Below, in pieces: positions 15,331 to 15,597 of a DNA stretch of 40,138 nucleotides; position 1 is the first letter of the stretch; every line of letters begins with the position of its first letter. The DNA comes from a virus (lineage: Duplodnaviria > Heunggongvirae > Uroviricota > Caudoviricetes), in IMG/VR virus record IMGVR_UViG_2896601577_000009; one strand, written 5' to 3'. The notes beneath the pieces are model-generated. The model was not told where the DNA came from and did no database searches. It saw only the letters and a program-made list of their open reading frames with translations. A program made the position numbers and the translations under genes.

Positions 15331-15597
15331 AAAATGAGAATAACCAGTTCCCTGAAGGCGACGTAGCCCGGTACAAGAGTAACCCACGTTAGCGCTTGGC
15401 GACGGCGGAACAAAGCTGATTCGCGACGTAAGAAAGTGGCAGGCTCATATGACGGACCTCTGTAATGCGGTATCCAACCCGCGAATATCAGCGTGATTCA
15501 CCGTCGGATTTACTGCTACGTCGCCCTCAGGGAATTAAACCTAAAAAGAAAATCGTCAAAATTAGAGATTCCGGTTTGACACGGAAAGTCATATCAG
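15331..15597 (+). ncRNA. Candidate bridge/seek RNA in the 3' non-coding end of the IS110/IS1111-family element
   Basis: A 267-nt non-coding tail, longer than the ~125-nt 5' end, as expected for IS1111-type elements. It contains GTAAG..GGCAG..ATATGAC (15428-15453), echoing the left junction GTAAG|GCAGTATGAC, and ATATCAGCGT (15486-15495), identical to the right junction at 15591-15600. Inference only; no covariance model was run. Confidence 0.3.
15580..15593. repeat. Right subterminal inverted repeat of the IS110-family element
   Basis: CACGGAAAGTCATA, the reverse complement of 14082-14095. Confidence 0.65.

What the first reader, a model, noticed from the sequence alone, without database searches (positions are those of the whole stretch)
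15331..15597. Candidate bridge/seek RNA with guide-like matches to both of its own insertion junctions
The 267-nt non-coding 3' end contains GTAAG (15428-15432), GGCAG (15438-15442) and ATATGAC (15447-15453), echoing the left junction GTAAG|GCAGTATGAC. It also contains ATATCAGCGT (15486-15495), identical to the right junction at 15591-15600, followed by CACCGT, which recurs in the flank. IS110-family recombinases are known to use a structured RNA from a non-coding end whose loops pair with target and donor DNA; these matches are what such guides would look like.
Basis: inference. Interest (0 to 1): 0.7.

Follow-up and report, generated by a model that had tools for sequence, protein, structure and literature searches.

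The report
ISSso6 bridge (seek) RNA gene

Summary
The region is the 3' non-coding end of ISSso6, an IS110-family, IS1111-group element at window 14078-15597. It has inserted into the GTAAG|CGT tip of an IS66-family terminal repeat.

Bases 15345-15537 fold into a seven-helix scaffold. The scaffold is conserved in 37 distinct relatives: 98% of cells are paired and 15 pairs show compensatory changes. A covariance model built from it finds the same RNA 3' of the transposase gene in relatives down to 48% protein identity.

Two hypervariable strands of one internal loop track each element's own flanks.
- 15428-15432 (GUAAG) equals the left flank.
- 15389-15397 (UUAGCGCUU) is the reverse complement of the right flank.
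- In permutation tests, 0 of 20000 shuffles reached the observed match for either strand.

AUAUCAG (15485-15491) equals the right end of the element. The next base (C15492) tracks the second flank base in 24 of 27 guide types.

GGCAG, ATATGAC and CACCGT are scaffold or chance.

Bridge and seek RNAs are established, and Durrant et al. 2024 already list ISSso6 with a right-end bridge RNA. Novelty is low. Expression was not tested.

The parts
14073..14077 (+). Left half of the target (GTAAG), the tip of the interrupted IS66-family terminal inverted repeat. A14076 (or A14076-G14077) is the base shared with the right junction.
   Evidence: Flanks of 11 ISSso6 copies end in (G/A)TAAG. The intact far repeat of the same IS66-family element reads GTAAGCGT at 18092-18098 on the minus strand.
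14078..15597 (+). ISSso6, 1520 bp (GCAGTATGAC...GTCATATCAG). The boundary is ambiguous by the shared A/AG.
   Evidence: RefSeq annotates the matches as 'IS110-like element ISSso6 family transposase'. Bases 1-1520 are 99.9-100% identical in the four copies aligned to the element by BLAST (L002, L006, L007, L010), and ten copies encoding the identical transposase have the same ends with different flanks.
14082..14095 (+). Left sub-terminal inverted repeat, TATGACTTTCCGTG. CAGTAT at 14079-14084 is the inferred -10 element of the circle-junction promoter.
   Evidence: Exact inverted copy at 15580-15593. Two matches in the window against 0.19 expected.
14203..15330 (+). Transposase gene, 375 aa. 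It is a DEDD RuvC-like recombinase with a Tnp domain carrying the G--P----SG serine motif.
   Evidence: Pfam PF01548 and PF02371. NCBIfam NF033542 'IS110 family RNA-guided transposase', 273.9 bits against a cut-off of 140. D12, E61, D99, D102, S268 and G269 are invariant in alignment A1. Weak PDB matches to IS621 and ISCro4 transposases.
15345..15537 (+). Predicted bridge/seek RNA scaffold, 193 nt, closed by basal stem P1 (15345-15367 with 15515-15537).
   Evidence: RNAalifold consensus of 37 relatives. 98.2% of cells are paired and 15 pairs carry compensatory changes, against 2-5 in slid controls. Model R1 gives its only strong window hit here, on the plus strand: 200.8 bits, against 33.4 bits on the minus strand.
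15389..15397 (+). Right target guide (UUAGCGCUU), on the 5' strand of the target-binding internal loop. [quoted passage not shown]
   Evidence: Across 26 distinct guides, cognate match to the right flank is 5.42 of 7, against 2.32 for non-cognate pairs; 0 of 20000 permutations reach this. A blind mutual-information scan pairs RT+2, +3, +4 and +5 with 15394, 15393, 15392 and 15391.
15399..15424 (+). Hairpin P5, which separates the two target guides. It contains GCUGAU at 15415-15420, which is not a guide.
   Evidence: Five of its eight pairs show compensatory changes. Relatives carry CCGACU or UCGACU at this position, with no complementarity to AUCAGC.
15428..15432 (+). Left target guide (GUAAG), on the 3' strand of the target-binding loop. 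It is identical to the top strand of the left flank and so pairs with the bottom strand.
   Evidence: Positions -5, -4 and -3 equal the element's own left flank in 16, 18 and 18 of 19 distinct guides. 0 of 20000 permutations reach the observed match. The mutual-information scan picks 15428, 15429 and 15430.
15436..15446 (+). 3' strands of helices P4 (GUGG) and P3 (GCUC), with junction CAG between them.
   Evidence: Pair 50/110 switches between G-C, A-U and U-A. GGCAGGCUC is nearly invariant (unchanged in 31 of the 37 aligned relatives) whichever base (G, T or A) follows AG at the left end.
15447..15452 (+). Variable block C (AUAUGA). Its role is unknown.
   Evidence: The block differs among relatives, yet the sub-terminal repeat TATGAC is invariant. 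It shows no association with the flanks or the ends.
15485..15492 (+). Donor guide AUAUCAG, identical to the right end plus the shared A/G and lying in multiloop junction J6/7. It is followed by C15492, a handshake-like base that equals the second base of the right flank.
   Evidence: The segment is conserved along with the right end. In the distant relative L090, the right end ATGAGAG is matched by AUGAGAG. Base 15492 equals RT+2 in 24 of 27 guide types (0 of 20000 permutations) and never equals the left-end base y (0 of 17).
15510..15517 (+). Candidate right-donor guide UUACUGCU. It is complementary to the left end A-G-(y skipped)-CAGTA. This assignment is unproven.
   Evidence: UACUGC is the reverse complement of 14078-14083. 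The left-end CAGTA is invariant in close relatives except L034/L036 (CAATA), whose RNA keeps UACUG, so they give no supporting test. L071/75/76/78 (CAATA with UAUUG) support the assignment; L063 and the GAGAG-ended clade do not.
15576..15581 (+). TTGACA, the inferred -35 element of the promoter formed when the ends are joined (TTGACA-N17-CAGTAT).
   Evidence: TTGACA sits at a fixed distance from the right end in all 40 aligned non-coding regions. The spacing was counted from the sequence. Function is inferred by analogy with ISEc11 (PMC11187229).
15580..15593 (+). Right sub-terminal inverted repeat, CACGGAAAGTCATA.
15598..15606 (+). Right half of the target (CGTCAACGG), the remainder of the IS66-family inverted repeat.
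   Evidence: It is followed by IS66-family tnpC (15623-17215, minus strand) and TnpB_IS66 (17246-17596, minus strand).

Best explanation
Window 15345-15537 is the gene for the bridge (seek) RNA of ISSso6, an IS1111-group member of the IS110 family. The RNA is made on the same strand as the transposase gene and folds into a seven-helix scaffold.

An internal loop between helices P4 and P5 is the target-binding loop. [quoted passage not shown] The two overlap at the crossover A. Together they specify roughly 5'-GTAA|GCGCTA-3', a sequence found at the tips of IS66-family inverted repeats.

[quoted passage not shown] The following base (C15492) can pair only after the right end has been joined to the target, so it acts like a handshake base.

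The DEDD/serine recombinase bound to this RNA would bring the circular element and the target together and exchange strands at the shared A.

Shown here: the conserved structure, the strand, and the covariation of the guides with flanks and ends. Inferred: expression, protein binding, the circular intermediate with its junction promoter (TTGACA-N17-CAGTAT), and the chemistry.
For: Identity of the element.

Structure:
- The single-sequence fold has z = -4.7.
- The consensus of 37 relatives has 49 pairs, 98.2% of cells paired and 15 compensatory pairs, against 2-5 in slid controls and 0 of 500 shuffles.
- Many conserved G-U pairs are valid only on the plus strand. The model scores 200.8 bits on the plus strand and 33.4 on the minus strand.
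- Full-length model hits lie 3' of tnp in relatives of 48-56% protein identity, at 51-108 bits.

Guides:
- For example, L017 has AUGGUAUUA against AATACCA and GCGGAAG against the flank GCGGAAG. L041 matches 9 of 9.
- Permutation tests give 0 of 20000 for the right guide, the left guide and the handshake base.
- An unbiased mutual-information scan recovers the exact registers.

Target: 11 ISSso6 copies share (G/A)TAAG | CG(T/C). An intact GTAAGCGT repeat tip is in the window.

Literature:
- IS1111 seekRNAs have the top-strand match 5' of the bottom-strand match, and the two matches overlap (PMC11187229).
- IS1111 donor-binding nucleotides often lie in a multiloop (PMC11208160).
- ISSso6 is listed as 'RE, IS1111' in that paper's supplementary table.
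Against: There are no expression or binding data for ISSso6. No promoter-like site lies just upstream of 15345, so the RNA would have to be processed from a longer transcript.

Rfam 15 has no matching family.

The guide for the left end of the element is unresolved. The candidate lies 3' of the right-end guide, which gives the donor junction the opposite strand order to the target loop.

The relatives are phylogenetically related, so the permutation counts overstate independence. The counts did, however, use distinct guide sequences only.

The handshake correlation does not hold in the distant clades.

This copy's right flank matches the guide imperfectly: one G-T wobble and one mismatch over 9 positions.
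Confidence: 0.9

Rival explanations
1. The matches are ordinary terminal-repeat homology. On this view the non-coding region holds a relic internal copy of the right end plus flank, left by an old nested insertion or duplication, and has no guide function.
For: ISSso6 does insert into its own non-coding region. L006 and L007 carry a full element followed by its own bases 1314-1520 or 1358-1520. ATATCAG is identical to the right end.
Against: The segment sits at a fixed place in a scaffold conserved down to 48% protein identity. The base after it changes with the flank of each relative (24 of 27). The neighbouring guide blocks covary with the flanks in parallel and antiparallel registers, which a relic would not do.
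Confidence: 0.03
2. The conserved fold acts in cis rather than as a guide. It might be a 3' UTR stabiliser or terminator for the transposase mRNA, or a set of DNA-level transposase binding sites.
For: It lies directly after the stop codon and has a long basal stem. No separate promoter was found. Expression was not measured.
Against: No U-tract or terminator-like site occurs on the plus strand in 15331-15597. A stabiliser would not need loop strands that track the flanking DNA of each element. Strand-specific G-U pairs and compensatory changes point to RNA rather than DNA sites.
Confidence: 0.05
3. The region encodes a small protein. Candidate ORFs are 15465-15707 on the plus strand (80 aa) and 15139-15387 on the minus strand (82 aa).
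For: Both ORFs appear in the mechanical ORF list.
Against: The plus-strand ORF runs out of the element into the IS66 repeat, so other copies would encode different tails. Relatives carry insertions, deletions and paired substitutions typical of RNA.
Confidence: 0.01

Closest known systems
seekRNAs of IS1111-family elements ISEc11, ISPa11, ISKpn4 and ISPst6 (Siddiquee et al. 2024, PMC11187229)
   Same: The RNA is encoded in the long non-coding region downstream of tnp. The segment complementary to the top strand of the target lies 5' of the segment complementary to the bottom strand, and the two overlap at the insertion point. Sub-terminal inverted repeats are present, and a -35/-10 pair is split between the right and left ends. 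The P2-enclosed domain (15368-15455, 88 nt) is the size of their short seekRNA (82-96 nt).
   Different: The ISSso6 transposase is 375 aa, against 330-350 aa for typical IS1111 members. It is only 17-25% identical to the other ISfinder entries compared in their identity matrix (the part of the row retrieved). The target is different (GTAAGCG-type). The P1-enclosed RNA is longer (193 nt, against 148-172 nt for the long form). There is no experimental work on ISSso6.
IS621 bridge RNA (Durrant et al. 2024, PMC11208160; Hiraizumi et al. 2024, PMC11208158)
   Same: A structured RNA from a non-coding end carries a target-binding internal loop capped by a hairpin. Its two guides pair with opposite DNA strands and overlap at a core. 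Donor-matching nucleotides are present, and a base next to a guide pairs only with the recombinant junction (a handshake base). The recombinase has the same domains (PF01548 and PF02371).
   Different: The RNA is at the right end, not the left. The guide order in the target loop is reversed. The donor nucleotides sit in a multiloop rather than a second internal loop. Only one base (A) is demonstrably shared between the junctions, rather than a CT dinucleotide. The handshake-like base is attached to the guide that pairs with the bottom strand. Read on the opposite strand of the element, this would correspond to the RDG plus HSG of IS621 (inference).
IS4321/IS5075 (which target the Tn21-family terminal repeats) and IS1383 (which targets the IS1384 repeats)
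   Same: These are IS110/IS1111-family elements whose preferred site is the terminal inverted repeat of another mobile element (cited in PMC11187229 and PMC13626964).
   Different: The host element here is an IS66-family IS, and the recognised site is only about 8-10 bp (GTAAGCG(C/T)..). It therefore also occurs in ordinary chromosomal genes: 6 of the 11 copies examined are not in IS66 repeats.

Membership tests
IS110 family, IS1111 group insertion sequence | DEDD (RuvC-like) N-terminal domain plus a C-terminal Tnp domain with the conserved G--P----S/T-G motif | tested here: met
   PF01548 and PF02371. NF033542 scores 273.9 bits against a cut-off of 140. D12, E61, D99 and D102, and GITPSEYSSG (S268, G269), are invariant in A1.
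IS110 family, IS1111 group insertion sequence | Sub-terminal inverted repeats of 7-17 bp with short terminal extensions | tested here: met
   A 14-bp repeat lies at 14082-14095 and 15580-15593, four bases in from each end.
IS110 family, IS1111 group insertion sequence | The long non-coding region lies downstream of tnp (right end longer than left end) | tested here: met
   The left end is 125 nt and the right end is 267 nt. Durrant's supplementary table lists ISSso6 as 'RE, IS1111'.
IS110 family, IS1111 group insertion sequence | Site-specific insertion without a multi-base target duplication | tested here: met
   11 copies share (G/A)TAAG | CG(T/C). Only A/AG is common to both junctions. The intact site GTAAGCGT is present in the window.
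IS110 family, IS1111 group insertion sequence | A circular intermediate whose joined ends form a promoter | not testable with these tools
   Only the motif can be seen: TTGACA (15576-15581)-N17-CAGTAT (14079-14084). Its position is conserved in 40 relatives.
Bridge RNA / seekRNA | A conserved secondary structure in the non-coding end, on the tnp strand | tested here: met
Bridge RNA / seekRNA | An internal loop with two guide segments that pair with opposite strands of the target and overlap at the insertion point | tested here: met
   15389-15397 is antiparallel to the right flank and 15428-15432 is parallel to the left flank. They overlap at positions -3, -2 and +1.
Bridge RNA / seekRNA | For IS1111-type RNAs, the top-strand match lies 5' of the bottom-strand match | tested here: met
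   The right target guide at 15389-15397 precedes the left target guide at 15428-15432. The criterion comes from PMC11187229.
Bridge RNA / seekRNA | Guides for both ends of the donor (the element itself) | tested here: inconclusive
   The right-end guide AUAUCAG is supported, since it changes with the right end in L090. The left-end guide is only a candidate at 15510-15517.
Bridge RNA / seekRNA | The RNA is expressed, binds the recombinase and is required for transposition, and it can be reprogrammed | not testable with these tools
   No transcriptome or biochemical data are available here.
Any Rfam 15 family | A match to a curated covariance model | tested here: not met
   No hits at E <= 10 over 13900-15800 on either strand. 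The library appears to hold no IS1111 bridge RNA model.

The most novel reading that the evidence does not exclude
In the ISSso6 clade the donor is read differently from IS621. The right-end guide and its handshake base sit in a multiloop 5' of the left-end guide, so the strand order is opposite to that of the target loop. The variable left-end base y (14078) would be skipped or bulged. Only a single A is shared at the crossover. Together these would imply a synaptic geometry or strand-exchange order not represented by the IS621 and ISCro4 structures.
Probability: 0.3. Interest if true: 0.45.

Novelty: already known. Interest (0 to 1): 0.25.

Why it matters
The result confirms that a reader working from sequence alone can spot a bridge RNA from its self-matches. 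It also gives a base-resolution guide map for ISSso6, an element common in Shigella and E. coli:
- right target guide, 15389-15397;
- left target guide, 15428-15432;
- right-end guide plus handshake base, 15485-15492.

The map explains why ISSso6 is so often found in the GTAAGCG tips of IS66-family elements, and why it occasionally lands in its own guide-coding DNA.

The family alignment holds 26 distinct natural right target guides (19 distinct left target guides) on one scaffold. It is a ready-made data set for designing or testing IS1111-type programmable recombinases, for which no structure matched by sequence in the PDB copy searched. The principle itself is not new.

Tried and rejected
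- **Rfam 15 scan.** Permissive thresholds gave nothing.
- **Single-sequence fold.** It pairs AUAUCAGC with GCUGAU at 15415-15420. I rejected this pairing because relatives have CCGACU there, and that segment is the 3' strand of the covarying hairpin P5.
- **GGCAG as a left-end guide.** Rejected. It is near-invariant whichever base (G, T or A) occupies the left-end position y, and it forms P4 plus a junction.
- **ATATGAC as a guide for the sub-terminal repeat.** Rejected. The block varies while the repeat does not.
- **CACCGT recurring in the flank.** Rejected. It is the invariant hairpin P7, and the flank match is specific to this copy and at a different offset.
- **The last two bases (GU) of the 10-mer as guide.** They match the flank in only 3 and 6 of 27 guide types.
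- **The 8-mer TTACTGCT against this copy's left flank AGCAGTAA.** This is a coincidence of this copy; other copies have different flanks.
- **A column covarying with left-end base y.** None stood out.
- **A left-end guide in distant clades.** The results were inconsistent.
- **A promoter directly upstream of the RNA.** None was found.

Full report
**Observation.** GTAAG is at 15428-15432, GGCAG at 15438-15442, ATATGAC at 15447-15453, and CACCGT at 15499 and 15609. The 10-mer ATATCAGCGT is at 15485-15494, one base left of the stated position, and again at the right junction, 15591-15600. The 10-mer occurs twice in the window, against 0.03 expected from shuffles. The short motifs are individually within chance. 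By my arithmetic, a given 5-mer is expected about 0.24 times per strand in 245 nt. They therefore needed a comparative test.

**What the element is.** Bases 14078-15597 are a 1520-bp copy of ISSso6.
- RefSeq annotates the 100%-identical copies in E. coli as 'IS110-like element ISSso6 family transposase'.
- The 375-aa protein (14203-15330) carries PF01548 and PF02371.
- It scores 273.9 bits on NCBIfam NF033542, 'IS110 family RNA-guided transposase'.
- Its only PDB relatives by sequence are the IS621 and ISCro4 transposases.
- A 14-bp sub-terminal inverted repeat (14082-14095 and 15580-15593) lies four bases in from each end.
- The left non-coding end is 125 nt and the right one is 267 nt.

These are the hallmarks of the IS1111 group (PMC11187229; PMC11208160).

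**The target.** Ten further copies encoding the identical transposase have different flanks. They share (G/A)TAAG on the left and CG(T/C) on the right, so the target is about GTAAGCG(T/C).

In the window the element interrupts the tip of an IS66-family terminal repeat (GTAAG|CGTCAACGG...). That repeat is followed by tnpC and TnpB_IS66. The intact far repeat of the same element reads GTAAGCGT at 18092-18098 on the minus strand. Left of the repeat tip is a 5'-truncated NicO/RcnA-like gene.

**A conserved RNA structure.** A scan of one genome per species returned 80 relatives at 48-81% protein identity. The 3' non-coding regions of the 40 distinct sequences at 64% identity or more align as a strongly conserved scaffold of about 190 nt, interrupted by a few hypervariable patches.

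RNAalifold on 37 distinct sequences gives seven helices. On that structure:
- 98.2% of cells are standard pairs.
- 15 of 49 pairs show changes on both sides, against 2-5 when partners are slid by 1-3 columns.
- None of 500 shuffles reaches any of the five measures.

Several near-invariant G-U pairs are possible only on the plus strand. A covariance model built from this alignment gives 200.8 bits at 15345-15537 on the plus strand and 33.4 bits on the minus strand, with no other hit in the window. It finds full-length matches (51-108 bits) directly 3' of tnp in all the distant relatives that had enough sequence. The single-sequence fold is also unusually stable (z = -4.7). Rfam 15 has no matching family.

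**The guides.** In window coordinates, helices P4 (15384-15387 with 15436-15439) and P5 (hairpin 15399-15424) enclose an internal loop. Its two strands are the hypervariable patches.

The 3' strand ends in a 5-mer (15428-15432, GUAAG) that equals each element's own left flank. Examples are GAACAAG in L013, GCGGAAG in L017, CACTAG in L049 and GCCTAG in L055.

The 5' strand (15389-15397, UUAGCGCUU) is the reverse complement of the last left-flank bases plus the right flank. Examples:
- L017: AUGGUAUUA against AATACCA.
- L019: CUCCUGUUU against AAACAGGAG.
- L041: 9 of 9 positions match.
- L050: AUCGGACUA against TAGTCCGAT.

The tests below used only distinct guide sequences.

| Guide | Distinct guides | Cognate match | Non-cognate match | Permutations reaching observed |
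|---|---|---|---|---|
| Right guide | 26 | 5.42 of 7 | 2.32 | 0 of 20000 |
| Left guide | 19 | 3.21 of 5 | 1.45 | 0 of 20000 |

A blind mutual-information scan of every RNA column against every flank position returns the same registers as top hits. Flank positions -5, -4 and -3 pair with 15428, 15429 and 15430. Flank positions +2, +3, +4 and +5 pair with 15394, 15393, 15392 and 15391.

The two guides overlap at positions -3, -2 and +1. The segment complementary to the top strand is 5' of the one complementary to the bottom strand. This is as described for IS1111 seekRNAs (PMC11187229).

For this copy, the right guide pairs with AAGCGTCAA with one G-T wobble and one mismatch. The ideal site would be GTAAGCGCTAA.

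**The donor side.** AUAUCAG (15485-15491) lies in the multiloop junction between hairpins P6 and P7. It is identical to the right end of the element plus the shared A/G. It is conserved wherever the right end is ATATCA(G), and it becomes AUGAGAG in L090, whose right end is ATGAGAG.

The next base (C15492) equals the second base of the right flank in 24 of 27 distinct guide types (0 of 20000 permutations). It never equals the base that follows in the circular donor (0 of 17). It can therefore pair only with the recombinant junction. That is the logic of the handshake guides of IS621 (PMC11208158; PMC13626964).

In ISSso6 they are probably fortuitous.

A guide for the left end is not settled. 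UUACUGCU (15510-15517) is complementary to the left end if the variable base y (14078) is skipped. Close relatives give no supporting test: CAGTA is invariant there except in L034/L036, whose left end reads CAATA while the RNA keeps UACUG. The distant clades disagree with one another.

| Motif | Verdict | Basis |
|---|---|---|
| GTAAG | Real left target guide | |
| ATATCAG+C | Real right-end guide plus handshake base | |
| GGCAG | Scaffold: 3' strand of P4 plus a junction, near-invariant whatever the left-end base | |
| ATATGAC | Lies in variable block C, which tracks nothing I could identify; its likeness to the repeat is peculiar to ISSso6 | |
| CACCGT | The invariant hairpin P7; the flank copy belongs to the IS66 repeat of this insertion only | |

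**How it most likely works.** The following is inference from the IS621, ISEc11 and ISEc21 experiments.
1. The RNA is cut from a transcript that runs through tnp. No promoter-like site precedes it.
2. After excision, the joined ends would create TTGACA (15576-15581)-N17-CAGTAT (14079-14084). Both hexamers and their spacing are conserved in all 40 aligned relatives.
3. The recombinase-RNA complex reads both strands of the target with the P4/P5 loop and reads the element's ends with the multiloop.
4. It then exchanges strands at the shared A.

**Two by-products support the guide map.**
- L006 is a copy followed by its own bases 1314-1520. The junction is at GTT-AG-CGCT, inside the DNA that encodes the right target guide. 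That DNA is nearly palindromic and so resembles the target.
- Five of the 11 copies lie in IS66-family repeat tips.

**Comparison and novelty.** Bridge and seek RNAs of IS110/IS1111 elements were described in 2024. Durrant et al. predicted one in 93% of IS1111 members and list ISSso6 as 'RE, IS1111' in their supplementary table. They also note that IS1111 donor nucleotides often lie in a multiloop. ISSso6 appears in the Siddiquee et al. data only as a sequence in the phylogeny. The six library papers that mention ISSso6 use the name only once or twice each.

The finding is therefore a correct rediscovery of a known feature of a catalogued element. What is added here is the base-level guide map, the target (IS66-type GTAAGCG tips) and a family alignment with 26 natural right target guide variants.

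**Open points.** These are the left-end guide, the role of block C, the exact crossover, and whether the donor junction has a geometry different from IS621. On the crossover: where the target has A at +1, the left junction keeps G and the right junction keeps A, so only one A is demonstrably shared.

**Caveats.** There are no expression data. The relatives are not phylogenetically independent. The flanks of single-copy relatives may include off-target insertions.

Noticed in passing
window 232-239 (+), 2665-2671 (-), 18092-18098 (-): Three unoccupied GTAAGCGT sites in the window. They are tips of IS66-family terminal repeats and match the ISSso6 guides about as well as the occupied site. The sequence at 232 is the same repeat into which ISSso6 has inserted in L003 and L004.
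   Followed up: partly
window 13493-14077 and 18099 onward: A 5'-truncated NicO/RcnA-like gene abuts the IS66 repeat tip on the left. The sequence beyond the far repeat (18099+) did not look like a continuation of that gene on inspection. The IS66-family element therefore marks a rearrangement rather than a simple insertion. IS1 fragments lie at about 12183-12880.
   Followed up: no
L006:1376-3100 and L007:1376-3056: Two ISSso6 copies are each followed directly by a second partial 3' end of the element (bases 1314-1520 and 1358-1520). In L006 the junction lies in the element's own right-target-guide DNA (GTT-AG-CGCT), which suggests self-targeting followed by recombination. The L007 junction (..GAA-AG-TGGCAGG) matches the guides poorly and is unexplained.
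   Followed up: partly
L009:2878-2900: This copy sits in an IS66-family repeat, but the repeat lacks the 7 bp CGTACAG next to the ISSso6 right end (ATATCAG|CCTGAACC). The cause may be a small deletion between CAG repeats.
   Followed up: no
window 15447-15452 (block C): Six hypervariable bases between helices P3 and P2 covary with neither the flanks nor the element ends. Their role is unknown.
   Followed up: partly
L017, L019, L021, L023, L025, L026, L027, L043, L047, L054 junctions: In relatives whose target has A instead of G just right of the crossover, the left junction always reads A-G and the right junction always reads A-A. Only one base is therefore shared between the junctions, unlike the CT dinucleotide core of IS621. 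The guides would tolerate this through G-T or U-G wobble.
   Followed up: partly
L058-L090: The same RNA scaffold lies 3' of tnp in relatives at 48-56% protein identity. These come from Alpha-, Beta- and Deltaproteobacteria and from Rokubacteria and Acidobacteriota MAGs. Some have a different right end (..CATGAGAG) and a correspondingly altered donor guide. L076 carries two tandem copies of the RNA (2551-2743 and 2929-3121).
   Followed up: partly
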